Of a stretch of DNA of 15,727 nt, positions 1 to 13,795 are shown piece by piece; position 1 is the first letter of the stretch, and every line of letters begins with the position of its first letter. A program made the position numbers and the translations under genes. The notes below the pieces were generated by a model that was not told the DNA's origin, ran no database searches, and saw only the letters and a program-made list of their open reading frames with translations. This DNA comes from a virus, in the UHGV virus genome UHGV-0299427; one strand, 5' to 3'.

Positions 1-126
1 ATTAATAAACCACATCGCATACCGATACACTCTATTACTAACCAATCATAGCCCACATCATAAAATCGAGATGAGGAGTACAATACCTTTAACAAGAAGG
101 TGTCATAACGATAATATGTCGTGCAA
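1..126. repeat. Left arm of a perfect inverted repeat pairing with 537-662; truncated by the window start
   Basis: Positions 1-126 are the exact reverse complement of 537-662, checked base by base. Identity ends at 127/536. The outer end coincides with position 1, so the true length is unknown. Confidence 0.9.
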
Positions 127-257
127 TTCATCAAAAAAAAGATCTATATCAAAGAGATAGAACTCTTATCAGTGCTTCAGACATCGGCATTCGAGGCAGC
201 AGAAAAACAGTAAATCTGACGAATTTGCCTTTTCCCAAGATGTTGTCAGATTAAAAA

Positions 258-405
258 GATAGATTAGCGCAGGTACCTGTTGGTGGATTGCAGGAGGAAA
301 AATGAAGTCGAGTGGAAAAATCCCAGAAAAATTTTTGTTTAACAGAGGTCCTGGCTCACTATGCGAAATACGGAGGAGCTGCAGAAGAATTCTGCTTCAT
401 CCTTA
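258..405 (+). pseudogene. Degenerate, internally deleted copy of the hok-like locus (leader motif plus 33-codon ORF MKSSGKIPEKFLFNRGPGSLCEIRRSCRRILLHP, no transmembrane segment)
   Basis: By-eye alignment to the minus-strand hok locus: motif GATAGATTAGCGCA vs GATAGATTACGCGC (13/14), following leader 21/32 and 24/30 matches, and tcactatgcgaaatacggaggagct vs tcgctgtgtgaaatacggatgagct (21/25). About 150 bp spanning the hok SD, start and hydrophobic N-terminus are missing. Strong SD AGGAGG before ATG 302. Confidence 0.35.
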
Positions 406-495
406 GAGTTTAAACAGCACGTGCACTACCATTGTTTCTGCATATCGCCACACCATCGCCACTCAACCGCCATTGCACAAAATACAAATACGAAA

Positions 496-515
496 AAACC
501 ACCCGAAGGTGGTTT
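496..515 (-). terminator. Hairpin (AAACCACC cgaa GGTGGTTT) followed on the minus strand by a T-rich run; candidate rho-independent terminator for a leftward transcript
   Basis: Perfect 8-bp stem with 4-nt loop. The minus-strand downstream sequence is TTTTTCGTATTTG; on the plus strand it is not T-rich. Confidence 0.4.
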
Positions 516-536
516 CACGACACTGCTTATTGCTTT

Positions 537-662
537 TTGCACGACATATTATCGTTATGACACCTTCTTGTTAAAGGTATTGTACTCCTCATCTCGATTT
601 TATGATGTGGGCTATGATTGGTTAGTAATAGAGTGTATCGGTATGCGATGTGGTTTATTAAT
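537..662. repeat. Right arm of the perfect inverted repeat; contains the putative ATG (643) and first 20 nt of the downstream secreted-protein gene
   Basis: Exact reverse complement of 1-126. ATGCGATGTGGTTTATTAAT at 643-662 lies inside the arm. Confidence 0.9.
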
Positions 663-924
663 GGCAATCTGCCTTTGTTTAGTATCTTTTAGCGGATATG
701 CAGCAACAGGAAAGTCTGATGCTCAGATCAAAAAAGAAATAATTAAAGAATCCATTGAATCTTATCCAGGCAATTGTGCGTGTCCTTATAATCATGCAAG
801 GAATGGTAGTAGATGTGGTGGACGCAGTGCATATAGCCGTAATGGAGGGTATGACGTGGTATGTTATGAGGGTGATGTTACCGATGAAATGATCCGGCAA
901 TGGAAGCAGGAGAATGCTGAGTAA
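643..924 (+). CDS. Small secreted Cys-containing protein of unknown function (93 aa; signal peptide MRCGLLMAICLCLVSFSGYA, mature part with CxC and two further Cys)
   Basis: C-terminal third of track ORF 361..924. Positive n-region, hydrophobic core and a GYA-A cleavage-like site begin at Met-643; the upstream 94 codons run through the repeat-flanked segment and look non-coding. SD is weak. Followed by a terminator at 992-1034. Confidence 0.45.
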   Translation: MRCGLLMAICLCLVSFSGYAATGKSDAQIKKEIIKESIESYPGNCACPYNHARNGSRCGGRSAYSRNGGYDVVCYEGDVTDEMIRQWKQENAE

Positions 925-991
925 TCTCTTTTAACAGGTTTGTTGTGCGAGCATTATGTGCCGTTAACGGTACACTAGCTAGTGATAGTTC

Positions 992-1034
992 CAAAAAGAA
1001 AACCCGCAGTTCTTACGCTGCGGGTTTGTTGTTC
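992..1034. terminator. Bidirectional rho-independent terminator (stem CCCGCAG / CTGCGGG, A-run 5' and T-run 3')
   Basis: AAAAAGAAAA-CCCGCAG-ttcttacg-CTGCGGG-TTTGTTGTT. It sits between the convergent secreted-protein gene (+) and hok-like gene (-). Confidence 0.55.
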
Positions 1035-1113
1035 ATGTCTGTGAGATAGGGTGCCTTATCGACCTTACCCTGGCAACCGATTGACGGGGGATAGCTCCCC
1101 CGTCGCGGTTTCC

Positions 1114-1254
1114 TTACTGCTTACACTGTAAGAACGCCGCAAACTCCGCTCCCCAGAAGCTCATCCGTATTTCACACAGCGAACCGTGCAGCATCCAGAT
1201 GATGAGGATTGCCGTCACGCAGAACGTGATGGCCATAAGCGATTTTTGCGACAT
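1114..1254 (-). CDS. Hok/Gef-family type I toxin (46 aa: MSQKSLMAITFCVTAILIIWMLHGSLCEIRMSFWGAEFAAFLQCKQ)
   Basis: Manual minus-strand translation; the ORF is below the track's size cutoff. N-terminal transmembrane helix followed by the SLCEIR-x6-E-x-AAF pattern recalled for Hok family members (nearest to HokA-like). SD AAGGAG lies 8 nt upstream. A GC hairpin (1083-1104) follows the stop, then the terminator at 992-1034. Confidence 0.6.
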   Translation of the reverse strand: MSQKSLMAITFCVTAILIIWMLHGSLCEIRMSFWGAEFAAFLQCKQ

Positions 1255-1490
1255 AGCGCTTGCTCCTTTTTCAGGGAGGCGCTAACCTATCACTTGCTAA
1301 GGTTAGATGGTCAGGGCCTCGGTTAAACAGAAATGTTTTCCGGGGCCTTTCCACATCTGGCCTTCGGGTATTCCCTCCGACCATCAGCCGAAAGGCACCC
1401 GCGCGTAATCTATCGCTTTTTTGTTACTCCGGCAATTCTGCCTGTTAATTCTGAGATAAAGGCAAACTCATCTGATTGTTTCCCCTGTGT
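1255..1490 (-). promoter_or_regulatory. Leader region of the hok-like mRNA (presumed mok/sok-type regulatory region), with motif GATAG(A/G)TTA(C/G)GCGC twice and a short leader ORF
   Basis: Motif at 1278-1291 and 1401-1414 (minus-strand sense). Layout GATAG...CGC...AAGGAG...ATG resembles the recalled R1 hok leader. Homology to the left-hand copy extends to about 1480-1490. No antisense RNA was mapped. Confidence 0.35.
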
Positions 1491-1705
1491 GAAGCTGGCA
1501 GCTCATGCCACGGGATACCTTCTGAAGAGTGAACGCCGGAGGCGTGTTTTGATGTGAATTTATGGAAAGCTTCCAGTGTTGAGAAGCATACGCCGCATTC
1601 CAGATTGTTACACTGGTAATACTTTTGCCGCACGGTGTTTGAATCATTTTCCGGACGACTGGTGCGGATACGGGCAGATGCGCCACAAAGCGGACAACGG
1701 AACAT
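1445..1705 (-). CDS. ogr: Ogr/Delta-family zinc-finger late transcription activator (86 aa as read; likely core about 72 aa plus a C-terminal extension)
   Basis: MFRCPLCGASARIRTSR...YQCNNLEC matches the P2 Ogr CPLC...C-x4-C zinc-finger pattern. SD AGGGAGG upstream. Sits immediately downstream of D, as in P2. Confidence 0.85.
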   Translation of the reverse strand: MFRCPLCGASARIRTSRPENDSNTVRQKYYQCNNLECGVCFSTLEAFHKFTSKHASGVHSSEGIPWHELPASHRGNNQMSLPLSQN

Positions 1706-1745
1706 AGCGACCTCCCTTAACGTGGTGCTGCCTATTCTAAGTTGC

Positions 1746-2855
1746 TCACTCTGTTTCCGCTATCCATTCCGGGATTTTTGCCTCAAGCTCAAGCTGCGTG
1801 GTAAAACCGCTGTTATCAATGGTGTGCTCGGCTTTTGCAATGATCCAGTCCTTATTATCAATCTCGCTTTTAAATCCTGTTACCGTGCCATGCATTTCGG
1901 GGTAGAGTTCTGCACGTCCACGCGCCAGCGTGATGGAGAATGATGCGGCTCCGCGTTGTAGTTGCTGCCACTTTGCCGCCGCTGCGCGTCTTGCTGCCTG
2001 CTCGTTCTGATAAGTCTTGCGTAACACAAACACATTGCCTTCCGCGCCTTCCATATAATCACCTTCACGGCTGCTGCTTTTCTCCTTTTTGGGTTTTGGC
2101 GGTTTACGGCGTTTCACGCTGACTTTTTTCTTTTTCCCGTAATTAAGATCAAGCCAGTAGGCGCGTACCCCCGTATACGCCTCGCGGTCAGCAATGCGGA
2201 ACTGATGGCGATCGCCGCTGCTGCGTGTAATGGCGAACGAGGGCAACGGCTGGCCCTGTGCGTTCACGCCACCACCTGGCATGATGAATAACAGATTGCC
2301 GCTTTTTACCGTGGTGATTGCGCCCAGCATTTCCGCCATGCGCGTAAGGAAGGACATGTCGCTTTCTTCGGTCTGGTCGGCGTGGTCGATTTCGATATCC
2401 ATCAGCATTTCGCTGATTTGCGGTTTCAGACCATACCGATGAGCGATGGCGGATACCACACGCTCAACGGTCACATCATGCCAGGACACCTCACGTTTAA
2501 CGTTAAATTCATCCCGAAAATCTGCGCTTCTGGCTGAAACAGTCAGCCTGTCCGGCGGTCCTTCGTGAGCGATTTCATCAACAATGTAAGTGCCTTTTTC
2601 TGTCAGCGGTTCTCCTTTCCAGCCAATGAGAACCGTCAGGCGCGCGCCCCGTGGCGGTAGCTGCAACTGACCATCCGCATCATCCAGCGTGATGGTGAGC
2701 TGGTCCGCGTCAAATCCCCGGTTGTCGGTCAGTGACAGGCTCATCAGGCGCTCTGCCACGCCTGACAGCGTTTTACCCTCCGCGAGAATATCAAAATCCG
2801 GCATTTTTACGGGGTCTGTGCCCTGACTGAGCAATTGCATGGTGGTGTCGGTCAT
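1746..2855 (-). CDS. D: Late control / tail protein D (gpD-like), 369 aa
   Basis: Track ORF 1746..2987 trimmed to ATG 2855, which is preceded by SD GGGAGGGAG. Length and position next to ogr fit P2 gpD. Contains a Lys-rich linker. Confidence 0.85.
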   Translation of the reverse strand: MTDTTMQLLSQGTDPVKMPDFDILAEGKTLSGVAERLMSLSLTDNRGFDADQLTITLDDADGQLQLPPRGARLTVLIGWKGEPLTEKGTYIVDEIAHEGPPDRLTVSARSADFRDEFNVKREVSWHDVTVERVVSAIAHRYGLKPQISEMLMDIEIDHADQTEESDMSFLTRMAEMLGAITTVKSGNLLFIMPGGGVNAQGQPLPSFAITRSSGDRHQFRIADREAYTGVRAYWLDLNYGKKKKVSVKRRKPPKPKKEKSSSREGDYMEGAEGNVFVLRKTYQNEQAARRAAAAKWQQLQRGAASFSITLARGRAELYPEMHGTVTGFKSEIDNKDWIIAKAEHTIDNSGFTTQLELEAKIPEWIAETE

Positions 2856-3012
2856 CTGCTCCCTCCCTGTGCGGCATGGTCGCATGTGCGTGCGGAGGGG
2901 GTTACTGCTTTTTGTTGTCGCCGTGGCGGGAGAACGGCGCAGGGGTGAGATTACGCGCGTGGTGGGTGATGATTGTTGCCGAATCATTTAACGGATACAA
3001 GGGGCTGAAGCT
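2856..3012. promoter_or_regulatory. Divergent intergenic region between D (-) and FI (+); expected site of the FI late promoter and any promoter for D
   Basis: 157 bp between divergent start codons. Only imperfect Ogr-type dyads were seen by eye (for example TGT-N12-AGA at 2916-2933); no perfect TGT-N12-ACA. Confidence 0.3.
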
Positions 3013-4197
3013 ATGAGTGAAACTCGTTTTCATGGTGCCCGTGTTACGGAAAGTACCGACCTGGTAACAGCGATTAACGATGTTGATTCCAGCGTTATCG
3101 GTATCGTGGCAACGGCGGATGATGCGGACGCGAAGCTGTTCCCGCTGAACAAGCCCACACTGCTGACCCGCGTCAATGACGTGCTGGGAAAATGCGGGAC
3201 AACGGGGACGCTTTATCGTGCGCTTAAGGCCATCGCAGACCAGGTGAGCACAAAGGTGATCGTCGTTCGCGTGGCTGAACACAAAGAAGAAAACGGAAAG
3301 ACGCAGGATCAACTGGTTATCGGTGGTTCTGAATCTGACGGCAGCTATACGGGGATGTATGCGCTGCTTGTTGCAGAGCAGGATGAAAGCATCGGATACC
3401 GTCCGCGTATTCTGGCCGCGCCGGAGCTGGACACGGAGGCGGTGACAAAATCCCTGTGCGTGATTGCGGGTAAACTGCGCGCGTTTGTGTATGCCTCATG
3501 TCATGGCTGTAACACGATGGCAGAGGCAATTACCTACCGCCAGAAATTCAACGAACGTGAGGTGATGCTCTTATGGCCGGACTTCATCGCCTACAACCCG
3601 AAAAGTGGCAAAAACGAAACGTTCCCCGCGCCTGCTTATGCGTGCGGCCTTCGTGCGTACATTGACCATGAGCAGGGCTGGCACAAATCACTGTCCAACG
3701 TTCCGGTTAAAAATGTGCTGGGGATGTCCCGGCATGTGTTCTGGTCGTTGCAGGCCGAAGACAGCGATGCCAACAGCCTTAACAACAAAGAAATCACGAC
3801 CATTATTCGTCGTAACGGGTTCCGCTTCTGGGGCAACCGCACACCGGAAACGAACGCCTACATCTTTGAGGTGTATACCCGAACCGCACAGGTGCTGGCT
3901 GATTCAATTGCGGAAGCGCAGTTTGAAACCATCGACAGTCCACTGACGCCTGCGAACGTGAAGGATGTTATCAGTGCCATCAGGGCAAAACTGGATTCAC
4001 TGGTTACTGCCGGGAAACTGATTGGCGCGGAGTGCTGGTATGACGTGGTGGATAACAGCACCACGGGTTTACGTCAGGGACGTGTGCGTATTCGCTACAA
4101 ATATACGCCAGTTCCCCCGCTGGAAGACATGGAGCTTTACCAGTCGTTTACTGATGAATTCTTTGGTCCCGCATTTGCGGTGCTGGGAGGTGCCTGA
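3013..4197 (+). CDS. FI: Contractile tail sheath protein (gpFI-like), 394 aa
   Basis: Length and motifs (…ADDADAKLFPLNKP…, …FRFWGNRT…) match P2 FI. SD AAGGGG. The stop overlaps the FII start (TGATG). Confidence 0.9.
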   Translation: MSETRFHGARVTESTDLVTAINDVDSSVIGIVATADDADAKLFPLNKPTLLTRVNDVLGKCGTTGTLYRALKAIADQVSTKVIVVRVAEHKEENGKTQDQLVIGGSESDGSYTGMYALLVAEQDESIGYRPRILAAPELDTEAVTKSLCVIAGKLRAFVYASCHGCNTMAEAITYRQKFNEREVMLLWPDFIAYNPKSGKNETFPAPAYACGLRAYIDHEQGWHKSLSNVPVKNVLGMSRHVFWSLQAEDSDANSLNNKEITTIIRRNGFRFWGNRTPETNAYIFEVYTRTAQVLADSIAEAQFETIDSPLTPANVKDVISAIRAKLDSLVTAGKLIGAECWYDVVDNSTTGLRQGRVRIRYKYTPVPPLEDMELYQSFTDEFFGPAFAVLGGA

Positions 4198-4709
4198 TGG
4201 CTGTACCAAAACATCTTCGCTTTTTTACGCTGTTTGTGGATGGTGAAAACGAAGTGGGTAAGGTGACGTCCGTCACTCTGCCTAAACTGACGCGCAAAAC
4301 CGACAGCTACCGGGGTGGTGGCATGATGGGTGCGGTAAGTATTGATCTCGGTCTGGACGACTCCGCGCTTGATGCGAGCTTTGTCATGGGGGGCGCAGTT
4401 CGTGAGCTGTTCCTTAAGTATGGCGGCACGATTGACGGCACGCTGCTGCGTTTTGCGGGTGAATACTACACCGATGCAGAAAGCGACCTGTATGAAGTCG
4501 AAATGCGCGGACGTGTGACGGAAATTGATATGGGGGAAGCCAAACAGGGCGAAGCCACATCACACACTTACGCCATTAAAAACACCTACTACAAGCTGAG
4601 TGTTAACGATCGCCCGTTGTGGGAGATTGACCTGCTGAACTTCATTTACCGGAAGGACGGCAAGGACATTGTGCCTGACCGTATCCGTTCCGCGCTTGGG
4701 CTTGGCTGA
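4197..4709 (+). CDS. FII: Tail tube protein (gpFII-like), 170 aa
   Basis: Follows the sheath gene with start/stop overlap; size and sequence are typical of P2 FII. Confidence 0.9.
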   Translation: MAVPKHLRFFTLFVDGENEVGKVTSVTLPKLTRKTDSYRGGGMMGAVSIDLGLDDSALDASFVMGGAVRELFLKYGGTIDGTLLRFAGEYYTDAESDLYEVEMRGRVTEIDMGEAKQGEATSHTYAIKNTYYKLSVNDRPLWEIDLLNFIYRKDGKDIVPDRIRSALGLG

Positions 4710-4763
4710 TAAGTAATATGCAGGCGGCGCAGTGCGTCGCCTCTGACTGAAAGGAGTTTCCTG

Positions 4764-5129
4764 ATGAAAGAGACGAAAAACATCGATACCGAAAACACGG
4801 TAGTTACTGACACTGTGAAAGAAACCAGTGAGCGTGGCGTAAAACTTACCCAACCAATTGAGCGAGGCGGCGAAAAAATCACGTATGTGGAGATCACCGG
4901 AGCTATTGAGCAGGCTGGATCTCTGCGAGATTTGTCGTTGTCTGATGTGCTGAATCTGAAAGCGGAATCCATGTTTACGCTGCTGTCACGCGTGACATCA
5001 CCGCGACTGGATGAAGTGACGATCAAAAAAATGGCATCCCGTGACTTTATTCAGTTATGTGTGGTTGCCGTAAATTTTTTGAGCGGTGCGGACTCTGGCG
5101 GGAAGAACGAACAGGCGACGGAAGCCTGA
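4764..5129 (+). CDS. E: Tail assembly chaperone gpE (frame-0 product)
   Basis: Sits between the tube and tape-measure genes. SD AGGAG 8 nt upstream. Contains the slippery heptamer near its 3' end. Confidence 0.8.
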   Translation: MKETKNIDTENTVVTDTVKETSERGVKLTQPIERGGEKITYVEITGAIEQAGSLRDLSLSDVLNLKAESMFTLLSRVTSPRLDEVTIKKMASRDFIQLCVVAVNFLSGADSGGKNEQATEA

Positions 5130-5293
5130 TCACGGTTGTGTGCTTTGAGCACATAGAAGACTTTGTGGCAGATATTGCCGTTATTTTTAACTGGTCGCCC
5201 GCTGAAATCTTCATGATGACGCCCGGCGAAGTGGTTAGCTGGCGTGAGCGGGCGGCACTTCGCAGCGGGAATGCAGACAATGAAGACTCTTGA
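5075..5293 (+). CDS. E': E' extension: -1 frame continuation giving the E+E' fusion by programmed frameshift at T TTT TTG (5075-5081)
   Basis: Track ORF 5057..5293 is in the -1 frame relative to E. Slippery site TTTTTTG is identical to the P2 E/E' site. Its stop overlaps the T start. Confidence 0.7.
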   Translation, partial: FFERCGLWREERTGDGSLITVVCFEHIEDFVADIAVIFNWSPAEIFMMTPGEVVSWRERAALRSGNADNEDS

Positions 5294-8192
5294 TATCCGG
5301 GTCGCTTTCAGCGCCGTTGACAGGCTGACCCGGCCTGCCGAAAACGCCCGCCGCCTGATGGGGCAGTTTGGTGACTCCATCCAGCGAACGCAGGGGGCGA
5401 TCAAAAATCTCGAGCGTCAGGCGCGTTCATTTGAGCGCGCCCGTGACGCTGTCAGTAAAGCGGATGCTGGCATCGTGAAAGCACGACGCCAGCTTAACGC
5501 CCTTAATCAGTTACAACGCACGGGTACAGTGCTCAGCGAAAAACAACAAAAGCTGATGCAGCAGTTAAGCACCCGGCTTGAACGCCTGAATGAATCGCGC
5601 ACACGGGAAATTCAGAAAATGCGGGAGCTTGGCGGAGAGCTGAAACGCCACGGCATTTCCCTGACAGGCAGCGATAACACCATCCAGCAGGCCATCAGAC
5701 GCACCGAACAGTACAACAATCAGCTTGAACGCGAACGGCAGGCGCTTGCGCGTGTAACGCGTGCGCGTGAGCGGTATTCGCGCGCGCAGGAAACAGCAGG
5801 AAAACTGAAAACAGGTGGTGCGCTGGCAATTGGTGCGGCAGCGGCTGGCGGCTATGCTGCCGGGCGTTTTTTGCAGCCTGCGATCGGGTTCGGGAAAGAG
5901 ATGTCCCGCGTTCAGGCACTGACGCGAATCGACAAAAACAGCCTGCAGTTTAAGGCGCTGCGTGAGCAGGCGTTAAAACTTGGCTCTGAAACGCAGTTCA
6001 CCGCAGGCGATGCCGCCAGTGGGCAGGCATTTCTTGCAATGGCAGGCTTCACTCCGCAGGCCATTCAGGCTGCGCTTCCCGGCGTACTGAGCATGGCAAC
6101 GGCTGGCGGTATGGATCTCGGCGAGACGGCAGATATTGGCTCAAATATCCTGACGCAGTTCGGCCTTTCTGCTGACCAGATGGACCGGGTCGGAGACACA
6201 CTCACCGCAGCGTTTACCCGTACCAACACTGACCTTCGCGCACTGGGCGAAACCATGAAATATGCCGGTCCGGTGGCGGGTAAGCTGGGGATATCGCTGG
6301 AGCAGGCCGCAGCGATGGCGGGCGTGCTGGCGAATATGGGCATCAGAGGGAGTGATGCCGGGACGGCAATGCGTGCCAGCCTGGCTCGTCTGGCATCACC
6401 GCCAAAGGCGGCGGCAGAAGCTCTGAAAGAGCTGGGCGTGTCCGTCTCGGATGCCGGGGGCAAAATGCGCCCGATGGAAGATCTGCTGGCTGACCTTTAT
6501 AAAGCTACCCGCAAATACGGGGAAGTTGACCGGGTATCCTTCTTTAAGGACATCGCCGGGGAAGAGGCTTTCACATCGTTTATGGCACTCGTTGATGCGG
6601 CGGGTGACGGTTCCTTACCCAAACTGAGAAAAGAACTTGAGGGCGCACGCGGTGAGGCTGAACGCACGGCAAAGGTTATGGCCAACAACCTTGATGGCGA
6701 TCTGAAATCACTCGGCAGTGCATGGGAAGGGTTGCGCATCCGCATTGCAGATCTGATTGACGGTCCGCTGCGTTCTGTCACGCAGTGGCTCACGCGGGTG
6801 GTCTCAAAGGTGACGGCGCTGGCGCAGGCCCATCCGGTACTGACGCGCCAGTTACTGATAGCGGGAGGCGCACTGCTGGCGACAACAGCAACGGTTGGTT
6901 CGTTGTCTCTGGTTATTGGGGTGCTTCACGGGAAGCTGGCTACGTTACGTCTCGGTTTTTCTCTCCTGACAGGATCAATGAATGTCGTCAGGGTGCTGCC
7001 AGCACTATGGGGAATGGTAACAGGTTCCATCTCGTTGCTGGGTGGCGCTATCGGGGCGCTGTTCAGTCCGGTCGGATTGATTGTTGCCGCGTTTGTGGCT
7101 GCGGCAGTTCTCATCTGGAAATACTGGGAACCCATCAAGGCGTTTTATATCGGGGTGTTCAACGGGATTATGGAACGACTGGCTCCGTTGCGCGAAACCT
7201 TTGAACGGTTCGGTCCTGTTTTTGATGTCGTGCGCGATGGGATTATTCAGGTCTTTAACTGGTTTAAATCGCTGCTGTCACCGATGGAGTCCAGCAAGGA
7301 AACGCTGGATAAATGTACCAGTGCTGGCGAGATATTCGGTAACGTTCTTGGCGGTGCGTTACAGCTTGTTCTGACACCTGCAAAAATGCTACTGGATACG
7401 CTGGCGTGGATACTTGAAAAACTTGGCGTCCTTCCGGATGAAGCGGAAAGGGCGCGCAAGAAAATTGAAGACGCACAGCGTGCGGCCATTCTTCAGGACA
7501 AGGTTGCTCTGTTTCAGGGAGACATTGCGAAAATCAATCCGCCGAAGTCTGCGGAAAATGGCAATGGCACCGGAGGCGATAAACCCAAAGACAACAAACC
7601 GCTCACAGACAGCAATACCGGTACGCTACGCAGACTCAGCAAAATTGCTGATAACACAGGTAAGCTGGTTGATGAGACGAAAAAACGCATTGGCCCCGGT
7701 GATATTGTCTTTAAGAACCTGCCCCGCGCACTTGCCGTTCGTGGGGAGTGGCAGGAGCGGAAGATTGCGCAGGTCAGTAAGCCTGCCTCCGCAATTAATA
7801 TCACACCCGTGGTCCCTGCTCCGCTGCCTCTGGCGCTGGTCCCTGGTGGGGAGTGGCAGGAGCGGAAGATTGCGCAGGTCAGTAAGCCTGCCCCCGCAAT
7901 TAATACCACACCCGTGGTCCCGGCTCCGCTGCCTCCGGCGCTGGTCCCTGTTGTTGCGGCCAGCTCCCGCCCGGTGGCGGAGGCCATACGATCGCCAGTG
8001 GCATCAGTTCCTGTAACTTCCCGTAACCGGGAGCCTGTTGCCTCCGGATTTGGTGGTGAAATTCATGTTCATCTGCATAACGTTGTTACGCAGAATCCCC
8101 GCGAACTGGCGAAACTGGTCGGTGAAATGGTCAGGGCAGAAATGGAACGGCGCGCCCGTGCCGGGCGTGGCAGTTTTTACGATAAAGATTGA
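5280..8192 (+). CDS. T: Tail tape measure protein (gpT-like), about 970 aa; start codon uncertain (GTG 5244, ATG 5271 or ATG 5280)
   Basis: Long Ala/Gly/Leu-rich protein with coiled-coil-like N-terminus and hydrophobic segments, between E/E' and U. Contains a 105-bp in-frame tandem duplication. Confidence 0.9.
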   Translation: MKTLDIRVAFSAVDRLTRPAENARRLMGQFGDSIQRTQGAIKNLERQARSFERARDAVSKADAGIVKARRQLNALNQLQRTGTVLSEKQQKLMQQLSTRLERLNESRTREIQKMRELGGELKRHGISLTGSDNTIQQAIRRTEQYNNQLERERQALARVTRARERYSRAQETAGKLKTGGALAIGAAAAGGYAAGRFLQPAIGFGKEMSRVQALTRIDKNSLQFKALREQALKLGSETQFTAGDAASGQAFLAMAGFTPQAIQAALPGVLSMATAGGMDLGETADIGSNILTQFGLSADQMDRVGDTLTAAFTRTNTDLRALGETMKYAGPVAGKLGISLEQAAAMAGVLANMGIRGSDAGTAMRASLARLASPPKAAAEALKELGVSVSDAGGKMRPMEDLLADLYKATRKYGEVDRVSFFKDIAGEEAFTSFMALVDAAGDGSLPKLRKELEGARGEAERTAKVMANNLDGDLKSLGSAWEGLRIRIADLIDGPLRSVTQWLTRVVSKVTALAQAHPVLTRQLLIAGGALLATTATVGSLSLVIGVLHGKLATLRLGFSLLTGSMNVVRVLPALWGMVTGSISLLGGAIGALFSPVGLIVAAFVAAAVLIWKYWEPIKAFYIGVFNGIMERLAPLRETFERFGPVFDVVRDGIIQVFNWFKSLLSPMESSKETLDKCTSAGEIFGNVLGGALQLVLTPAKMLLDTLAWILEKLGVLPDEAERARKKIEDAQRAAILQDKVALFQGDIAKINPPKSAENGNGTGGDKPKDNKPLTDSNTGTLRRLSKIADNTGKLVDETKKRIGPGDIVFKNLPRALAVRGEWQERKIAQVSKPASAINITPVVPAPLPLALVPGGEWQERKIAQVSKPAPAINTTPVVPAPLPPALVPVVAASSRPVAEAIRSPVASVPVTSRNREPVASGFGGEIHVHLHNVVTQNPRELAKLVGEMVRAEMERRARAGRGSFYDKD
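7741..7950 (+). repeat. Two tandem copies of a 105-bp (35-codon) unit within the tape measure gene
   Basis: 7741-7845 and 7846-7950 differ at about 4 positions. Protein repeat is VRGEWQERKIAQVSKPA(S/P)AIN(I/T)TPVVPAPLP(L/P)ALVP. Confidence 0.85.
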
Positions 8193-8204
8193 GGAGTCAT
8201 GGCC

Positions 8205-8693
8205 ATGATGATGATCTACGGCATGTTTGTTTTTGAGCTGCGCACGTTGCCGCATCAGCAGTTACAGCAAAGCAAAAGCTGGCGGCATGTGAAAAATGAA
8301 CGCGTTAACCGTTCAGCAAGCTGGCAGTATATCGGTGCAGGTGATGATCGCATCGTGCTTTCAGGCGTGCTTTATCCTGAAATTACAGGTGGCGAAGTGT
8401 CGCTTTCGTTGCTGACCACGCAGGCATATACAGGACGCCCCTGGCCTCTGATTGATGGTGTCGGGCAGATTTACGGCATGTATGTCCTGACCGAAACGAA
8501 TACGACCCGTTCCGAGTTTGATCGCTACGGTAAGGCGAAAAAGATAGAATTTTCACTGACCCTTGAACGCTGTGATGAGGATTTGCGGGAGCGCCTGCAA
8601 TCCTCATCGTTCAGTGATATGCTGTCCGGCTTCAAAGATAAGGTCACATCATCCCTTAACAGCGCGGCCAGCTCCGTTAAAGGGCTGTTTTGA
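8205..8693 (+). CDS. U: Tail protein gpU-like (about 162 aa); start at ATG 8205 preferred over 8199
   Basis: Follows T with SD GAGGAG; size and position fit P2 U. ATG 8199 is only 2 nt from the SD, 8205 is 8 nt. Confidence 0.85.
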   Translation: MMMIYGMFVFELRTLPHQQLQQSKSWRHVKNERVNRSASWQYIGAGDDRIVLSGVLYPEITGGEVSLSLLTTQAYTGRPWPLIDGVGQIYGMYVLTETNTTRSEFDRYGKAKKIEFSLTLERCDEDLRERLQSSSFSDMLSGFKDKVTSSLNSAASSVKGLF

Positions 8694-8700
8694 TTAACGC

Positions 8701-8730
8701 AAAACCGCTAATGGTCAGATTAGCGGTTTT
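8701..8730. terminator. Perfect 12-bp-stem hairpin (AAAACCGCTAAT ggtcag ATTAGCGGTTTT) between convergent U and invertase genes; bidirectional terminator candidate
   Basis: Seen directly. T-run follows on the plus strand. The invertase stop codon (8720-8722) lies inside the stem. Confidence 0.6.
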
Positions 8731-9319
8731 CATTTTCCTGAGTCTGCCTGGTTGTTGCTTCAGCCTGTATATCGCCTACAGGGTGATAACGATAAATCGT
8801 CGATATGCCGATGTCGTAAATGATCGCCAGTTGTTTCCTGTCATGACCGTTTTTAATCAGCCTTGCTATTTGCTCGTGTTGTTCTTTTGTCAACTTCGGG
8901 CGACGTCCGCCAATGCGTCCTTGTGCGCGTGCTGCTGCCAGCCCGGCCAGTGTACGTTCTACAATTAATTCACGTTCCATTTCGGCTAAAGCCCCCATGA
9001 CGTGAAAAAAGAAACGCCCCATGGGTGTTGACGTGTCAATGCTGTCCGTCAGACTACGGAAATTAACACCTTTTTCCCGCAATTCCTCAATAAGCGTGAT
9101 CAGGTGTTTCATACTTCTGCCCAGTCTGTCCAGCTTCCAGACAACCAGCGTATCTCCTTCTGATAGCGTTCTGAGCAGTTTTTTCAATCCCGGTCTGGTT
9201 GATTTCGTTCCGCTGATTTTATCTTCAAAAATCAGTTCACATCCTGCGCAGTTCAGTGCATTGCGTTGTAAATCCGTGTTCTGGTCGTTTGTTGACACAC
9301 GAATATAGCCAATTTGCAT
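8720..9319 (-). CDS. Serine-recombinase DNA invertase (Hin/Gin/Cin/Pin, Din family), 199 aa
   Basis: MQIGYIRVSTNDQNTDLQ… with catalytic Ser motif and C-terminal HTH (…AIIYDIGISTIYRY…). Track ORF trimmed to ATG 9319 with SD AAGAGGA. Adjacent to the invertible tail fibre segment. Confidence 0.9.
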   Translation of the reverse strand: MQIGYIRVSTNDQNTDLQRNALNCAGCELIFEDKISGTKSTRPGLKKLLRTLSEGDTLVVWKLDRLGRSMKHLITLIEELREKGVNFRSLTDSIDTSTPMGRFFFHVMGALAEMERELIVERTLAGLAAARAQGRIGGRRPKLTKEQHEQIARLIKNGHDRKQLAIIYDIGISTIYRYHPVGDIQAEATTRQTQENENR

Positions 9320-9373
9320 AAAAAACATCCTCTTTGTTTCGTGAAAAATACAGAGTTGGTATAGGTAGGGATA

Positions 9374-9399
9374 AAAACGAAAACGTTGGTTTGGGAGAA
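9374..9399. other. Left crossover site of the invertible segment (reverse complement TTCTCCCAAACC AA CGTTTTCGTTTT)
   Basis: Shares the 15-nt core TTGGTTTGGGAGAAG (9386-9400) in inverted orientation with 11209-11223. Resembles recalled gix/cix/hix half-site architecture (AAACC-NN-GGTTT). Confidence 0.6.
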
Positions 9400-9738
9400 G
9401 CGGCAAAAAGGAATGTGGGGACAGGGACGAATCAGATACCTGATATGGGTAGCTTCACGCTTTCTGTTTCAGGTACTGGATATCAAAAATTACCATCTGG
9501 TTTTATTCTTCAGTGGGGCTCAATCGGCGCACCAAGCATTGCACAGGATGTGGTAACCCATTTTCCGATTGCATTTCCAAACAGATGTCTGCGTGTTTTG
9601 GTCTCACAAGACTACACACCAGATAGCGGGGCTGTTGGTTATATTGCCTGTGCAGGTTTTAGTTCCGACCCGGTTAAATTTATATCCAGAGCCAGTACTC
9701 CTGGCCTCGGCGCTTCATTTTTAGCGTTAGGCTGTTAA
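9386..9738 (+). CDS. Alternative tail fibre C-terminal segment (Hv'), silent in this orientation; no start codon of its own
   Basis: Reading frame is continuous with the shared core (…VGLGEAAK…), which matches the …LGLGEGS… junction in H. Would fuse to the H constant region after inversion. Track ORF 9334..9738 begins at an incidental ATG. Confidence 0.6.
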
Positions 9739-9760
9739 TTTAGCTATATGGAGTGAAAAA

Positions 9761-10201
9761 ATGAATTACATATATTCCGCGACGACAAACTCTTTCTATC
9801 CCTTGGAGATGAAAGAGGATTACACACAAGCTGACTCATGGCCAGATGATGCTGTTGAAGTTGATGAGCAAGTGTATATTGAGTTTTCCGGATTACCGCC
9901 GAAAGGAAAAATCCGTATCGCTGGAGAAAATGGTTTTCCTGCATGGTCTGAAATTCCACCACCAACACATGAGGAACAGATTGCTGCAGCCGAACAGGAA
10001 AAGCAGCAACTGATTAATCAGGCCAACGATTATATGAACAGTAAACAATGGCCTGGTAAAGCGGCTATTGGTCGTCTGAAAGGTGAGGAACTGGCGCAAT
10101 ATAATTTGTGGCTGGATTATCTGGACGCACTGGAACTGGTCGATACTTCCGGTGCGCCAGATATTGAATGGCCTACGCCTCCGGCAGTTCAGGCCAGATG
10201 A
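9761..10201 (+). CDS. Tail fibre assembly protein (tfa', alternative copy), 146 aa
   Basis: C-terminal …DTSGAPDIEWP… motif homologous to the minus-strand tfa C-terminus. SD GGAGTG. Convergent 29-nt overlap with tfa. Confidence 0.8.
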   Translation: MNYIYSATTNSFYPLEMKEDYTQADSWPDDAVEVDEQVYIEFSGLPPKGKIRIAGENGFPAWSEIPPPTHEEQIAAAEQEKQQLINQANDYMNSKQWPGKAAIGRLKGEELAQYNLWLDYLDALELVDTSGAPDIEWPTPPAVQAR

Positions 10202-10766
10202 CATCCGGCGCGGTGCTGGTATCTGTTGTCGTCACCGCGTCAATGTAATCAAGCACGGCGTTAAGCCGGGTGGTTTCTGCCTGCGTCAGCTTCCGCCCGG
10301 CCTGTAATTTCAGCTGAATCAGACTGATGGAAGCCATTGCAGCATCAATCAGTGACTGGCGCTGTGCTTCTGCCGCTTCTACTGCGGCACCGTGTTGTGC
10401 CTCAGTATCTGTCACCCATTTCTCACCATCCCATTTATCATATGGCGTTAACGGTGAAAGCGTGACATAACCGTTTTTGATGGCACCGATATAATCCACT
10501 GTAACAGCAGCACCATTTTCGATTGAGTAAACAGTCTCATTGCGATGGTCTTCTTCATGGCTCCATCCCTTACCTGTAAATACTGCCACTCTTCCCGGAA
10601 TGTTTTCGCCAGGGTCAATACCAGTGGAACAGGCGGGCATACTTACGCCAGTATTAATATATTCATCAGACCAGCCCGTATACTCAGATGTTTCAGCATC
10701 ATAATAAAAACAACGCATATCGCCCGGCACTGTAGCCAGCCCATTTTCATCAAAAACAGGTTTCAT
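10173..10766 (-). CDS. Tail fibre assembly protein (tfa, expressed copy; gpG-equivalent), 197 aa
   Basis: Start overlaps the H stop (TAATG). C-terminal …DTSTAPDVIWP… motif. Confidence 0.85.
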   Translation of the reverse strand: MKPVFDENGLATVPGDMRCFYYDAETSEYTGWSDEYINTGVSMPACSTGIDPGENIPGRVAVFTGKGWSHEEDHRNETVYSIENGAAVTVDYIGAIKNGYVTLSPLTPYDKWDGEKWVTDTEAQHGAAVEAAEAQRQSLIDAAMASISLIQLKLQAGRKLTQAETTRLNAVLDYIDAVTTTDTSTAPDVIWPELPEA

Positions 10767-12301
10767 TATTTAGCCCTCACCAGAAAGTTAAATGCAATAT
10801 TTCGCGGTCTGACAGCAACAAAATTCACACCATCACCCAAAGAGTTACTGGTGAAATTAAATCGTGAAAATCCTGGCTGATTTCCGGCGATGCCATCATG
10901 AAAATTAATTGCGTGTCCCGCACCTCCGCCTATATTCCCGGCAAACTGAGAAAAGTTTGTAGCTGCCTGCCAGCTTAATAATTTGCGACCACCGTCTGCA
11001 CCTCGCCCGTCATCCCAGATACGAATGAAATCACCGCGGGCTTCAGGTAATACCAGCGAAGGAAACACTTTTGCCAGCACAGGGTAATCAGAGGCAGAAA
11101 ATTTCGCCCCGTTGAACTTCAAAAACACCATACTGGACCAGCTTTTGATTACGGTATCTGGCATTGCGGCGGACGGCCAGAAGAACGGAACGCCAATAGC
11201 TGGAGAACCTTCTCCCAAACCAAGGTAATTGAGGACATCTTTTATACTGCCCTTAGCGATAATAGCGCGACCAATAGCTGTAAGGGTTGCCAGCGCTGCG
11301 CGGTCTGCTCCGGTAAAATAAGGCAACCGATCTGCTGCAGTGACAAGTCCTGCCAGAGCAGTGAGCGTGGCATCTGCCGGTTGTTTTCCGTTTGCCAGAT
11401 CGTATGCAGCCTTGACCGCTTTCGGTGTGGCGGCCAGTATTTCAGACGTGCTGTTGATGGCACTGCTCAATTGTACGGTGCCTTTTGCCGTCAGCGAGGC
11501 AGCAGGCACTCCCGTTATCTGACTCCACGGGTGAGTGTGGCTGACGGGTGCCTTGCCAGCTGCAAGGTCGTATGCAGCCTTGACGGCTTTTGGTGTGGCG
11601 GCCAGCGTTTCAGAGGTGCTGTTGGTGGCACTGCTCAGTTGTACGATCCCTTTACGGGTCGTTGTTGCATCCTGGGCTGTGTATTTTCCCCGGGCCAGAT
11701 CATACGCGATTTTCACAGCCTTCGGCGTGGCAGCCTCAGTTTCTGATTGACTGTCCGTGGCGCTGCTAAGTTGAACAAAGCCTTTTGCGGTCAGCGAGGC
11801 GTCCGGGTGACGTCGTGACTGCTCGTGCTTTGAGATTTTATCATCCACATATTTGCGGGTTGCCAGAACCACAGACGGGTCGATTTTCAGCGTGATGGCT
11901 TTGGTGTTCGTGACAACCAGAATCATGCGGATAGTCTGGGTGCGTCCACTGCCTTCCTGCAACTGCGGTTTGTACGTTTCCGGGCAGTTTGCCACCGCAA
12001 TGAGTACACCTTTATCATCATAAAGACCAATCTCACGGATCCAGAATCCTCCCTCGTCTTCAGGGATGATTTGCTCCGCAATAATCTGGCTCTGATTGTT
12101 AGGGTCAACACTCAGAAGATTCAGCGGTGCAATGCGTTTCTGGTTAATCAGTTTTGTTTGTGCAGGGTTTGGTGTTGGTAACACACCATTTGCATCACCA
12201 ACGGCCATTTGCGTCAGATTCAGCTTACTGCCGAGCATCGTCGCGTTAGCCAGTCGTGCCGCGCCCTGATTAGTCAGAATGGCGTAGTATTTCATTGTCA
12301 T
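10766..12301 (-). CDS. H: Tail fibre protein (gpH-like), 511 aa; constant N-terminal part about residues 1-364 and a variable C-terminal part inside the invertible segment
   Basis: N-terminus …MAVGDANGV… is P2 H-like. Three internal about 35-aa fibre repeats. Crossover core lies at codons about 360-364. Confidence 0.9.
   Translation of the reverse strand: MTMKYYAILTNQGAARLANATMLGSKLNLTQMAVGDANGVLPTPNPAQTKLINQKRIAPLNLLSVDPNNQSQIIAEQIIPEDEGGFWIREIGLYDDKGVLIAVANCPETYKPQLQEGSGRTQTIRMILVVTNTKAITLKIDPSVVLATRKYVDDKISKHEQSRRHPDASLTAKGFVQLSSATDSQSETEAATPKAVKIAYDLARGKYTAQDATTTRKGIVQLSSATNSTSETLAATPKAVKAAYDLAAGKAPVSHTHPWSQITGVPAASLTAKGTVQLSSAINSTSEILAATPKAVKAAYDLANGKQPADATLTALAGLVTAADRLPYFTGADRAALATLTAIGRAIIAKGSIKDVLNYLGLGEGSPAIGVPFFWPSAAMPDTVIKSWSSMVFLKFNGAKFSASDYPVLAKVFPSLVLPEARGDFIRIWDDGRGADGGRKLLSWQAATNFSQFAGNIGGGAGHAINFHDGIAGNQPGFSRFNFTSNSLGDGVNFVAVRPRNIAFNFLVRAK
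11210..11235. other. Right crossover site of the invertible segment (TTCTCCCAAACC AA GGTAATTGAGGA), inside gene H
   Basis: Core 11209-11223 is the exact reverse complement of 9386-9400. Confidence 0.6.
11384..11806. repeat. Three imperfect intragenic repeats in H (phage tail fibre repeat, (A/R)KG(F/I/T)VQLSSA…ATPKAVK(A/I)AYDLA)
   Basis: Protein repeats start at residues 172, 216 and 272 (spacing 132 and 168 bp). They also generate the spurious plus-strand ORFs at 11381-11750. Confidence 0.7.
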
Positions 12302-12906
12302 GCGTTTACTCTCAGATTATCAATTAAATGAATGGCCGGGGCAGGGAAATAATCCCCTTCGACAATAATGGACTCCGGGGTGTAGGGGTAAACCGTCAGG
12401 GCATCGCCGTGATAGCATCCCGTACCAACGAAAATCTTTCCGTTCACACTCAGACTGATCGCCAGCCCTGTCAGATGGCGACTTACTGGTTTTGCATCCG
12501 CAATAAGGCGTTCAAGTTCCTGATGCATTTCATCGGTGATGCCCTGATCAAGTACTCCGACAACAATGCGAAATGTCCCAGGCTCCTCATTGAGTTGCCA
12601 CCACTCCTTTACTTCAATCAGGTAGCCGAGAGGCTCCACGGCTCTTCGCAGTGCGCTGATGGTCCCTTTGTGTCGGTGTATCAGCCATGCATCACGAATC
12701 ACCTGTCGCTTTGTCTCTTCCGGCCAGTTGCGATCCCAGCGGTCAACGGAAAACGCCCAGGCGAGATAAGGCAGCAGATGCACCGGGCAGGTGTCCGGCG
12801 ACCACAACGTGTTGAGGTCTACCGGAATGTCTGTAATGCGTGTTCCGACGGCTTCGGCACAACGCATGAAATTGCTGGCTGATGGGGGTAACAACGAATT
12901 ACTCAT
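12298..12906 (-). CDS. I: Baseplate assembly protein I (gpI-like), about 202 aa
   Basis: Track ORF trimmed to ATG 12906, which overlaps the J stop. Its stop overlaps the H start (ATGA). Confidence 0.85.
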   Translation of the reverse strand: MSNSLLPPSASNFMRCAEAVGTRITDIPVDLNTLWSPDTCPVHLLPYLAWAFSVDRWDRNWPEETKRQVIRDAWLIHRHKGTISALRRAVEPLGYLIEVKEWWQLNEEPGTFRIVVGVLDQGITDEMHQELERLIADAKPVSRHLTGLAISLSVNGKIFVGTGCYHGDALTVYPYTPESIIVEGDYFPAPAIHLIDNLRVNA

Positions 12907-13795
12907 TGCGTCCACCTTCGCTGATGGTGAATGACTCACAGCGCGCCGCCTGTATGTCGCTGATGGCCATATTCTGTGTGGGTTCGATTATCTCCACGCG
13001 TTGCACACCGTGCACATGCAGTGCGGCAGCAATGGCGGACAACGCCACGTCCTGACCGATAAGCCCCTGCTCAGCCAGCCACTTCCTGAACGACGATTCA
13101 GCCGCGGCCAGAATAGGTTCGGATTCCGGGCCGGGGTAAAAGTACAGTTTTGCATTCAGCCGCCATGTCACGATTCTGGCGCTCTGTACGGTCAGGCGGT
13201 CGGCCACCGGGCGGGTATCCTCTGCATTCAGAGTGGCGCGAACGGTATTAAGCAACGCCTCCGTTGCTGTGCCGTCGCCTTCAGTGGACAGAATGGAAAC
13301 CGTCACGTTGGCCGGAGACGGGCTGATGGCTCGCGCGTCGCGTACCAGACCGCTGGCGCTGCGTGCAAAATACTCGTATGCGCCTGACGGGCCAGCAACA
13401 CTCAGACCGTCATACGCCCGTTGCGCCCGCAGTCTCAGCGATGTGTCGCTTTCCATCACCGCGTCGGTGGTATCCGTTGCCGGAGTGATAACCAGGCGCT
13501 TTGTGTTCATATTGCCCGCGAGGTTGTCCAGGTCTGTCCCGGCGCTGTGGCTTAACATGCAGGCGCGTGCACCCTCATTGACCCGCTGGCGTAACAGCAT
13601 TTCACGAAACGCTGTTGTCTGGGCGATAACGTTCAGGGGTTCTGATTCCAGCTCCAGCGCGGCGGAGACGGCTTCACGCTGTTCGGCAGGATAGGACGCA
13701 ATCATCATGGCCTTTGTGTCAGCCAGAATTGCCTCAAAATCAGGCTTCGCGATGATGGCGGGTTCCGGTAACTGGGAAAGGTCAACAGCAGGCAT
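12899..13795 (-). CDS. J: Baseplate assembly protein J (gpJ-like), 298 aa
   Basis: Size and position between W and I; typical translational coupling. Confidence 0.9.
   Translation of the reverse strand: MPAVDLSQLPEPAIIAKPDFEAILADTKAMMIASYPAEQREAVSAALELESEPLNVIAQTTAFREMLLRQRVNEGARACMLSHSAGTDLDNLAGNMNTKRLVITPATDTTDAVMESDTSLRLRAQRAYDGLSVAGPSGAYEYFARSASGLVRDARAISPSPANVTVSILSTEGDGTATEALLNTVRATLNAEDTRPVADRLTVQSARIVTWRLNAKLYFYPGPESEPILAAAESSFRKWLAEQGLIGQDVALSAIAAALHVHGVQRVEIIEPTQNMAISDIQAARCESFTISEGGRNE

What the first reader, a model, noticed from the sequence alone, without database searches (positions are those of the whole stretch)
215..410. Second, internally deleted hok-like locus in inverted orientation
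Plus-strand 215-375 aligns to the minus-strand hok locus leader (1490 down to about 1300) and again to the SLCEIR-coding part. The intervening about 150 bp (hok SD, start codon and hydrophobic N-terminus) is missing. The resulting 33-codon ORF has a strong SD but no transmembrane region. This is either a decayed toxin copy or a retained RNA-level regulatory element, and with the right-hand copy it forms an imperfect inverted duplication bracketing the secreted-protein gene.
Basis: seen in the sequence. Interest (0 to 1): 0.45.

Follow-up and report, generated by a model that had tools for sequence, protein, structure and literature searches.

The report
Decayed hok toxin relic, artificially flipped
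This is a real but dead, internally deleted leftover of a hok/sok toxin-antitoxin locus at the edge of a common P2-like E. coli prophage, and its "inverted" orientation is peculiar to this sequence and most likely an assembly error.

Summary
The similarity is real. Window 213-232, 253-353 and 356-380 (+) align in the same order to 1477-1458, 1421-1312 and 1182-1158 (-) of the intact hok locus, with z = 5.2, 16.4 and 7.5 against dinucleotide shuffles. The copy lacks 129 nt: the presumed sok promoter, the hok SD and start codon, and the membrane helix. It also lacks the hok 3'UTR.

It is an unannotated relic next to the attP arm of a P2-like prophage integrated at leuZ. It occurs in about 615 of 5426 complete E. 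coli genomes, always with the same deletion.

Nothing suggests a function:
- The SD-ATG ORF comes in three incompatible forms (34, 36 or 13 aa) across 26 haplotypes.
- Nucleotide diversity is 0.09-0.10, against 0.027 and 0.002 for the matching parts of the intact copy.
- The predicted fold is no better than shuffles (z = +0.4; the intact hok mRNA gives z = -6.8).
- The Rfam sok model does not match it.

The inverted orientation is not native. Window 1-536 is the exact reverse complement of the native block and carries a perfect 126-nt overlap duplication (1-126 / 537-662). Every other sequence examined has the two hok copies in direct orientation, including two contigs otherwise identical to the window. 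The flip is probably a misassembly. Ordinary; low interest.

The parts
1..126 (.). Left arm of a perfect 126-nt inverted repeat. It is the reverse complement of 537-662 and is cut by the window start. It carries the first codons of the secreted-protein gene pointing leftwards.
   Evidence: I1, 100% complementary; window 1-536 is the exact reverse complement of the native block
127..536 (.). 410-nt segment that is inverted here relative to every other sequence examined. It contains the hok relic, the attP arm and 44 nt of the att core.
213..232 (+). Fragment homologous to the last codons of ogr. This is the left edge of the relic.
   Evidence: 213-232 ~ 1477-1458, z = 5.2; ogr ORF at 1445-1705
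253..353 (+). hok leader homologue. It holds a -10-like TAGATT at 260-265, the +1 equivalent near 271, the SD AGGAGG at 292-297, an ATG at 302 and the counterpart of the Sok-target hairpin at 316-351. An 18-nt gap relative to the intact copy removes the -35 position.
   Evidence: z = 16.4; alignment A1; Rfam model position 1 maps to 1400 in the intact copy
353..356 (+). Deletion junction. Intact 1311-1183 (129 nt) is missing here. That stretch holds the presumed sok promoter and Sok 5' end, the mok stop, the hok SD, the hok ATG and codons 1-24 (the membrane helix).
   Evidence: the sok promoter position is inferred by analogy with plasmid R1
356..417 (+). Remnant of the hok C-terminal coding part (SLCEIR...). 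It is frameshifted relative to Hok. Homology ends at the hok stop, so the 3'UTR is absent.
   Evidence: 356-380, z = 7.5; 402-417 weak, nothing beyond
302..406 (+). 34-codon mok'-'hok fusion ORF. It is not conserved and not coding.
   Evidence: no Pfam match; 34, 36 or 13 aa, or SD-ATG lost, across 26 haplotypes
418..492 (.). Phage attP arm with ATCGCCAC repeats at 444-451 and 455-462. These are putative integrase arm sites.
   Evidence: read from the sequence; the same motif lies next to int at the other prophage end in E. coli 55989; their function is inferred
493..536 (-). 44 nt of the att core: the leuZ operon terminator and the distal part of 3'ETS-leuZ. It breaks off at 536.
537..662 (.). 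Right arm of the inverted repeat. This is the native upstream region and start of the secreted-protein gene.
643..924 (+). 93-aa Cys-rich protein gene with a predicted signal peptide and no family assignment. It lies between the two hok copies.
1040..1400 (-). Intact hok mRNA. It includes the hok CDS at 1114-1254, a mok-like ORF at 1271-1384, and 5' and 3' ends that pair with each other. The presumed sok promoter is on the + strand (-35 at 1260-1265, -10 at 1283-1288), with Sok RNA at about 1295-1350.
   Evidence: Rfam sok 42.7 bits, E = 8.5e-8, below the gathering score of 59; HOK_GEF 30.2 bits; z = -6.8; sok coordinates are inferred
1445..1705 (-). ogr/Delta zinc-finger late activator. It marks the right end of the P2-like prophage.

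Best explanation
Window 213-417 is a non-functional relic of an "ogr 3' end - hok/sok" module. It sits directly against the attP arm of a family of P2-like prophages that integrate into the 3' half of leuZ.

What the relic has lost:
- A 129-nt internal deletion removed the antitoxin promoter and Sok 5' end, the hok ribosome-binding site, the start codon and the membrane helix.
- An 18-nt gap removed the -35 position of the hok promoter.
- The 3'UTR that carries the fold-back (fbi) element is missing.

It therefore cannot make toxin, cannot make Sok, and cannot adopt the hok mRNA architecture. It drifts neutrally and hitch-hikes with the prophage.

The likely history (inferred) is that an older phage had hok directly next to attP. 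After that copy decayed, or as it did, a newer "ogr-hok-terminator-secreted protein" block was added inboard of it by recombination between P2-like phages.

Natively the relic and the intact hok are direct repeats on the same strand. In this window the terminal 536 nt appear as their reverse complement and overlap the rest by a duplicated 126 nt. I read this as a misjoin or inverted chimera at a contig end rather than biology.
For: Homology:
- Three blocks in the same order in both copies have z = 5.2, 16.4 and 7.5.

Context:
- The native order is pgsA, glyW-cysT-leuZ, att core, relic, 93-aa gene, hok, ogr, D.
- Homology with K-12 stops right after the leuZ terminator.
- The att core is repeated next to int at the other prophage end.

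Age and spread:
- The relic is unannotated in 615-643 of 5426 complete genomes.
- All 26 haplotypes are 410-413 nt long, so they share the same deletion.

No coding constraint:
- The ORF is 34 aa, 36 aa in another frame, or 13 aa, or has lost its SD-ATG.

No sequence constraint:
- Diversity (pi) is 0.097 and 0.099 in the relic's leader and C-terminal parts.
- The adjacent intergenic DNA has 0.043.
- The homologous parts of the intact copy in the same prophages have 0.027 and 0.002.

No RNA signal:
- The relic folds with z = +0.42, against -6.81 with 5'/3' end pairing for the intact mRNA.
- The alifold covariation term is -0.88 kcal/mol.
- The Rfam sok model hits the intact copy only.

Orientation:
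- Window 1-536 is the reverse complement of the native block that overlaps 537-662.
- The 536/537 junction is absent from 5426 complete E. coli genomes, IMG/VR, GTDB representatives and JGI metagenomes.
- All 30 IMG/VR loci are native.
- ENA contigs k141_27757 and k119_80888 match the window with no mismatch outside the invertible tail-fibre segment (537-15727 and 537-9400 plus 11209-15727) but have the native arrangement.
- The repeat arm is 126 nt, which is 127 - 1. The flipped block ends inside the att-core repeat, near where other draft contigs also end (L056 starts 75 nt beyond the equivalent point, L014 49 nt short of it).
Against: - The SD-ATG and the first ~10 codons (MK[S/L]SGKIPEK) are kept in 25 of 26 haplotypes. 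A promoter-like TTAACA-17-TAATAT at 89-117 points into the relic (not above chance). Transcription of a short leader peptide or RNA is therefore not excluded.
- No expression data were available.
- The misassembly reading is circumstantial. No repeat at the 536/537 junction explains a purely graph-based misjoin. I could not see the reads, nor what lies left of window position 1.
- The sok promoter coordinates rest on analogy with plasmid R1 recalled from memory. The hexamers are weak (3/6 and 3/6).
Confidence: 0.8

Rival explanations
1. The flipped 536-nt block is a genuine rearrangement in the source strain. It would be a fold-back inverted duplication, making the two hok copies truly inverted and creating a recombinogenic 126+ nt inverted repeat around a 410-nt segment.
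For: - The sequence as given carries it, and the repeat arms are perfect.
- No shared k-mer at the junction would explain a purely computational misjoin (sequence inspection).
- The left arm may extend beyond the window.
Against: - The junction is absent from 5426 complete E. coli genomes and from three large collections.
- Two contigs identical to the rest of the window are native.
- The native locus has only one copy of the 126-nt sequence, so there is no substrate for simple inversion.
- The arrangement would cut 3'ETS-leuZ 22 nt after the tRNA and detach the glyW-cysT-leuZ operon.
- The arm length equals 127 - 1.
Confidence: 0.2
2. The relic is kept as an RNA-level element. One possibility is a decoy for Sok from the neighbouring intact locus. 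Another is a short-leader-ORF regulatory RNA.
For: - The counterpart of the Sok-target hairpin (316-351) is about 80% identical to the intact one.
- The SD-ATG is nearly invariant.
- The relic has persisted through about 14% divergence.
Against: - It folds no better than shuffles and covariation is negligible.
- It has the highest diversity in its neighbourhood, 3.6 to about 50 times that of the intact homologous parts.
- The stretch complementary to the Sok 5' tail lies inside the deletion (inference).
- The -35 position is lost.
- The Rfam sok model does not match.
Confidence: 0.05
3. The 34-codon ORF 302-406 encodes a functional small protein, a Mok-Hok fusion.
For: There is a strong SD (AGGAGG) 4 nt before the ATG.
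Against: - The product is 34 aa, 36 aa in a different frame, or 13 aa in different haplotypes.
- It has no Pfam match and no hydrophobic segment.
Confidence: 0.02
4. The relic persists because it lies inside the functional attP arm. It would act as spacer DNA or carry binding sites for integrase, IHF or an excisionase, so deleting it would impair integration or excision.
For: - It abuts the arm that carries ATCGCCAC repeats (444-462), which also occur next to int.
- Its length is constant at 410-413 nt across 26 haplotypes.
Against: - Its sequence diversity is higher than in the arm itself (0.090 against 0.080) and twice that of the DNA on its other side.
- No repeated motifs were found inside it.
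Confidence: 0.1

Closest known systems
hok/sok (parB) type I toxin-antitoxin locus of plasmid R1 and its relatives
   Same: - There is clear nucleotide homology to a hok leader and to the SLCEIR-coding part.
- The neighbouring copy at 1040-1400 has the full architecture: a Hok/Gef protein, a mok-like ORF, 5'/3' end pairing and an Rfam sok hit.
- The elements tac/fbi, ucb/dcb, the mok SD and Sok binding are as described in PMC9841398.
   Different: The relic lacks the toxin start and membrane helix, the antitoxin promoter, the -35 of the hok promoter and the fbi-bearing 3'UTR. It is not a working member.
Inactivated chromosomal hok loci of E. coli K-12 (hokA, hokC, hokE and others; Pedersen and Gerdes 1999, recalled from memory, not checked here)
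   Same: These are hok-family loci that have lost function and persist as relics in E. coli chromosomes.
   Different: As I recall, those loci were disabled mostly by IS insertions or point changes and sit at core chromosomal sites. This one is disabled by an internal deletion plus truncation, and it is prophage-borne at an attP arm.
hok loci of P2-like phages (annotated 'MokW-like host killing' in phages P88, Chuche and 500465-2)
   Same: These are the only phage-database relatives of the relic (72.5% over about 100 nt). They occupy the same position between ogr and attP.
   Different: Those copies are intact. No phage record in the collection contains the relic or the 93-aa gene.
Inverted chimeras and fold-back misjoins at contig ends
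   Same: One strand is read outwards and then the other strand is read from a point a few hundred bases inside. This gives a perfect inverted repeat at a contig end that also lies at a genomic repeat.
   Different: This is not proven here. Reads are unavailable, and the arm length matching 127 - 1 is only suggestive.

Membership tests
hok/sok type I toxin-antitoxin locus (functional member) | ORF encoding a Hok/Gef toxin (about 50 aa) with an N-terminal membrane helix | tested here: not met
   ORF 302-406 has no PF01848 match and no hydrophobic stretch. The intact neighbour scores 30.2 bits against a cut-off of 22. Codons 1-24 fall in the deletion.
hok/sok type I toxin-antitoxin locus (functional member) | Antisense Sok RNA gene with its own promoter opposite the mok/hok leader | tested here: not met
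   The positions that correspond to the presumed sok -35, -10 and +1 in the intact copy (1260-1296) lie inside the missing 1311-1183 stretch. The promoter assignment itself is by analogy with R1. PMC9841398 places pSok in the dcb region.
hok/sok type I toxin-antitoxin locus (functional member) | Highly structured mRNA with 5' tac / 3' fbi long-range pairing | tested here: not met
   The relic folds with z = +0.42, against -6.81 with paired ends for the intact mRNA. Homology stops at the hok stop codon, so there is no 3'UTR.
hok/sok type I toxin-antitoxin locus (functional member) | Match to the Rfam sok model RF01794 (hok leader) | tested here: not met
   There is no hit at E <= 10 even when only 361 nt are searched. 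The intact copy gives 42.7 bits, E = 8.5e-8, itself below the gathering score of 59.
hok/sok type I toxin-antitoxin locus (descent, i.e. pseudogene of the family) | Significant nucleotide homology, in matching order, to a bona fide hok locus | tested here: met
   Three blocks in the same order in both copies, z = 5.2, 16.4 and 7.5.
hok/sok type I toxin-antitoxin locus (descent, i.e. pseudogene of the family) | Relaxed constraint compared with functional copies | tested here: met
   Diversity (pi) is 0.097 and 0.099 in the relic against 0.027 and 0.002 in the intact copy. The ORF frame is not conserved.
Invertible DNA switch (phase-variable segment flanked by inverted repeats) | Inverted repeats flank the segment in the native locus, and both orientations occur in the population | tested here: not met
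   Native loci have a single copy of the 126-nt sequence. Only one orientation is seen in 5426 genomes and in more than 35 other contigs.
Invertible DNA switch (phase-variable segment flanked by inverted repeats) | A dedicated recombinase acts on the repeats | not testable with these tools
   A Hin/Gin-type invertase is encoded at about 8720-9320. It serves the tail-fibre segment at 9383-11226, which is inverted in L056. Nothing links it to 1-662.

The most novel reading that the evidence does not exclude
Despite its decay, the relic could be transcribed from the promoter-like site in the 126-nt block. Through its conserved SD-ATG mini-ORF and hairpin homologue, it could modulate the neighbouring hok/sok module or attP function. 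Alternatively, the fold-back inversion could be a real in vivo rearrangement that truncates the 3'ETS-leuZ sponge RNA.
Probability: 0.05. Interest if true: 0.4.

Novelty: new member of a known kind. Interest (0 to 1): 0.12.

Why it matters
It matters little for biology. It adds one more unannotated hok pseudogene, and it shows that P2-like phages build up and erode accessory ("moron") cassettes between ogr and attP.

It has two practical uses:
- About 11% of complete E. coli genomes carry this relic without annotation. Homology-based searches for type I toxin-antitoxin loci may trip over it.
- The window shows how a flipped contig end can pass for an "inverted duplication".

Tried and rejected
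- Rfam at gathering threshold on the whole window gave nothing. With permissive E-values, the sok model matched only the intact copy.
- The consensus promoter scan found no sigma-70 site in either hok copy. Its only hits are the same site in both repeat arms, no more than chance would give.
- I looked for the 536/537 junction as an exact 24-mer in IMG/VR, GTDB representative genomes and JGI metagenomes, with no matches. A 96-nt junction query against the complete E. coli genomes found no spanning place.
- I looked for a pre-deletion, intact version of the leuZ-side copy using the attP-arm motif. There was none in the GTDB representatives. All 30 IMG/VR hits carry the same deleted form.
- I tested whether homology extends further into ogr (127-212) or into the hok 3'UTR (381-492). 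It does not (z = 0.1 and 1.1).
- I tested whether the breakpoint at 536 coincides with the att-core boundary, which would point to integrase involvement. It does not: the core runs on into the tRNA.
- A look-up of the 187-aa ORF that spans the junction found nothing on record.
- Literature searches for a described hok relic at leuZ or in P2-like prophages found nothing relevant.

Full report
**Observation**

A Smith-Waterman alignment of window 190-430 (+) against the reverse complement of 1080-1520 scores 54. 500 dinucleotide-preserving shuffles give 18.1 +/- 2.2 (maximum 27), so z = 16.4; the same-strand control scores 16.

Masking that block and testing the flanks gives two more blocks in the same order:
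- 356-380 ~ 1182-1158, the SLCEIR-coding part (z = 7.5).
- 213-232 ~ 1477-1458 (z = 5.2). In the intact copy this is the last codons of ogr.

Nothing further aligns on the left (127-212, z = 0.1). Only a weak tail aligns on the right, 402-417 ~ 1132-1117, up to the hok stop.

The stretch missing from the left copy is intact 1311-1183, which is 129 nt. The ORF is 302-406, 34 codons, with AGGAGG at 292-297. It has no Pfam match and no hydrophobic segment. The right-hand Hok (1114-1254, minus strand) scores 30.2 bits on PF01848.

**Genomic context**

The window is the ogr-proximal end and tail module of a P2-like prophage of E. coli. The native order is uvrC, pgsA, glyW-cysT-leuZ, att core, relic, 93-aa signal-peptide protein, hok, ogr, D, and so on.

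Comparison with K-12 shows chromosomal homology ending exactly after the leuZ operon terminator. In E. coli 55989 the same core is repeated next to the integrase gene at the yecA side. That core comprises the 3' half of tRNA-Leu, 3'ETS-leuZ and the terminator. The relic is therefore phage DNA, lying between the attP arm and the 93-aa gene. The arm carries ATCGCCAC repeats at 444-462, which also occur beside int.

**Orientation**

The window contains a perfect 126-nt inverted repeat, 1-126 / 537-662, whose left arm is cut by the window start.

In every other sequence examined, window 1-536 maps as the exact reverse complement of a block that overlaps 537-662. The native sequence is therefore [att-core part][relic on the same strand as hok][126-nt block][93-aa gene...]. 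The window is the reverse complement of those first 536 nt, placed in front of the 126-nt block again.

Evidence that this arrangement is unique to the window:
- None of 5426 complete E. coli genomes holds a place spanning the 536/537 junction.
- An exact 24-mer across the junction is absent from IMG/VR, GTDB representatives and JGI metagenomes.
- All 30 IMG/VR contigs with this attP arm are native.
- Only two public contigs carry the window's exact 970-aa tape-measure protein. Both are native on the left. ENA ERZ27255841 k141_27757 is 100.000% identical to window 537-15727 (15,191 nt, no mismatch). ERZ27272354 k119_80888 matches with no mismatch over 537-9400 and 11209-15727; in between it has the tail-fibre segment inverted.

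Native loci have only one copy of the 126-nt sequence, so simple inversion is impossible. The flipped block ends 44 nt inside the att-core repeat, near where other draft contigs also end: L056 starts 75 nt beyond the equivalent point and L014 49 nt short of it. The arm length is 127 - 1.

I conclude, with about 75-80% confidence, that the "inverted orientation" is a contig-end misjoin or inverted chimera. Natively the two hok copies are direct repeats separated by the oppositely oriented 93-aa gene.

**What the relic retains and lacks**

The Rfam sok model (RF01794) aligns to the intact copy at 1400-1241 on the hok-sense strand. The score is 42.7 bits (E = 8.5e-8), below the gathering score of 59. 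This alignment sets the mRNA 5' end near 1400.

The relic retains:
- the -10-like TAGATT (260-265);
- the leader, with a mok-type SD/ATG;
- the counterpart of the Sok-target hairpin (316-351);
- a frameshifted stretch of the hok C-terminal codons.

The relic lacks:
- the -35 position of the hok promoter, through an 18-nt gap;
- the 129 nt that in the intact copy hold the presumed sok promoter, the Sok 5' end, the mok stop, the hok SD, the ATG and the membrane helix. The promoter (-35 at 1260-1265, -10 at 1283-1288 on the plus strand) is placed by positional analogy with plasmid R1. This is my inference. PMC9841398 places pSok in the dcb region;
- the whole 3'UTR, which in hok mRNAs carries the fbi element (PMC9841398).

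**Tests for residual function**

1. *Coding.* From more than 50 loci I extracted 26 haplotypes of the 410-nt segment. All are 410-413 nt long, so the deletion predates about 14% sequence divergence. The ORF behind the conserved SD-ATG is 34 aa, 36 aa in another frame, or 13 aa, and one haplotype has lost the SD-ATG.
2. *Constraint.* Mean pairwise diversity is 0.090 in the relic, with 0.097 in the leader part and 0.099 in the C-terminal part. Neighbouring values are 0.043 in the adjacent intergenic DNA, 0.080 in the attP arm and 0.003 in the att core. In the same prophages, the homologous parts of the intact copy have 0.027 and 0.002, and the hok CDS 0.009.
3. *RNA structure.* The intact hok mRNA (1400 to 1040) folds at -160 kcal/mol, z = -6.81, with its 5' and 3' ends paired. 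The relic (267-420) gives z = +0.42. A consensus fold of four divergent haplotypes has a covariation term of only -0.88 kcal/mol.
4. *Rfam.* There is no sok hit on the relic, even in a 361-nt search at E <= 10.

**Best explanation**

This is a dead relic of an "ogr 3' end - hok/sok" module next to attP. It is carried passively by leuZ-integrating P2-like prophages and is present, without annotation, in about 615-643 of 5426 complete E. coli genomes.

The only phage-database relatives of the relic are the intact hok loci of P2-like phages (72.5% identity). In those phages hok lies directly between ogr and attP. This suggests that the relic is the original attP-adjacent copy, and that the present ogr-hok-terminator-93-aa-gene block was added later by recombination. 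That history is inferred, not shown.

**Comparison with known systems and novelty**

The relic descends from the hok/sok family but fails every functional criterion tested: toxin ORF, antitoxin promoter, mRNA architecture and Rfam model. Decayed hok loci are a familiar phenomenon in E. coli (Pedersen and Gerdes 1999, from memory). This is a new, unannotated member of that known kind. It is ordinary and of low interest.

The residual open point is that the SD-ATG and about 10 codons are nearly invariant, and I had no expression data. I give about 5% to a retained RNA or leader function.

Noticed in passing
window 493-536 (minus strand); L007 4028-4116 and about 39672-39760: The prophage att core is long. 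It covers the 3' half of tRNA-Leu (leuZ), the whole 3'ETS-leuZ sponge sRNA and the operon terminator. In lysogens, the 3'ETS-leuZ attached to leuZ is therefore supplied by phage DNA, and a second partial copy sits beside int.
   Followed up: partly
window 444-451, 455-462 (and a degenerate copy at 465-473); L007 about 4250: ATCGCCAC direct repeats lie in the arm next to the att core. The same motif occurs next to the integrase gene at the other prophage end. They are probably integrase arm-type binding sites.
   Followed up: no
window 643-924 (+): A 93-aa Cys-rich protein with a signal-peptide-like N-terminus and no Pfam family (only a sub-threshold Sclerostin hit). It is a phage accessory gene between the two hok copies, and it is interrupted by an IS element in some strains (IS3 family in RM8988; IS600 listed under the match in 90-3040).
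   Followed up: no
window about 8720-9320 (-) and 9383-11226: A Hin/Gin-type serine invertase lies next to alternative tail-fibre C-termini and tail-fibre assembly genes. The 1844-nt segment 9383-11226 is inverted in the otherwise identical contig L056, so the host-range switch is active in the population.
   Followed up: partly
window 7719-7928: There is a tandem 105-nt repeat inside the tape-measure gene. Related contigs encode 935-, 970- and 1005-aa versions that differ by one repeat unit (35 aa), which implies repeat copy-number variation.
   Followed up: no
window 1255-1311 and 1040-1113 (intact hok locus): Within the intact hok locus the CDS is almost invariant (pi 0.009). The stretch with the presumed sok promoter and the 3'UTR are very variable (pi 0.105 and 0.124). 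This suggests allelic replacement or co-evolution of the Sok and fbi parts.
   Followed up: no
window 1000-1027: A strong bidirectional terminator hairpin lies between the 93-aa gene and the hok 3' end. Homology to sequenced P2-like phages (P88, Chuche) stops at about 991-993, just beyond it, and near 1039-1049 in others.
   Followed up: no
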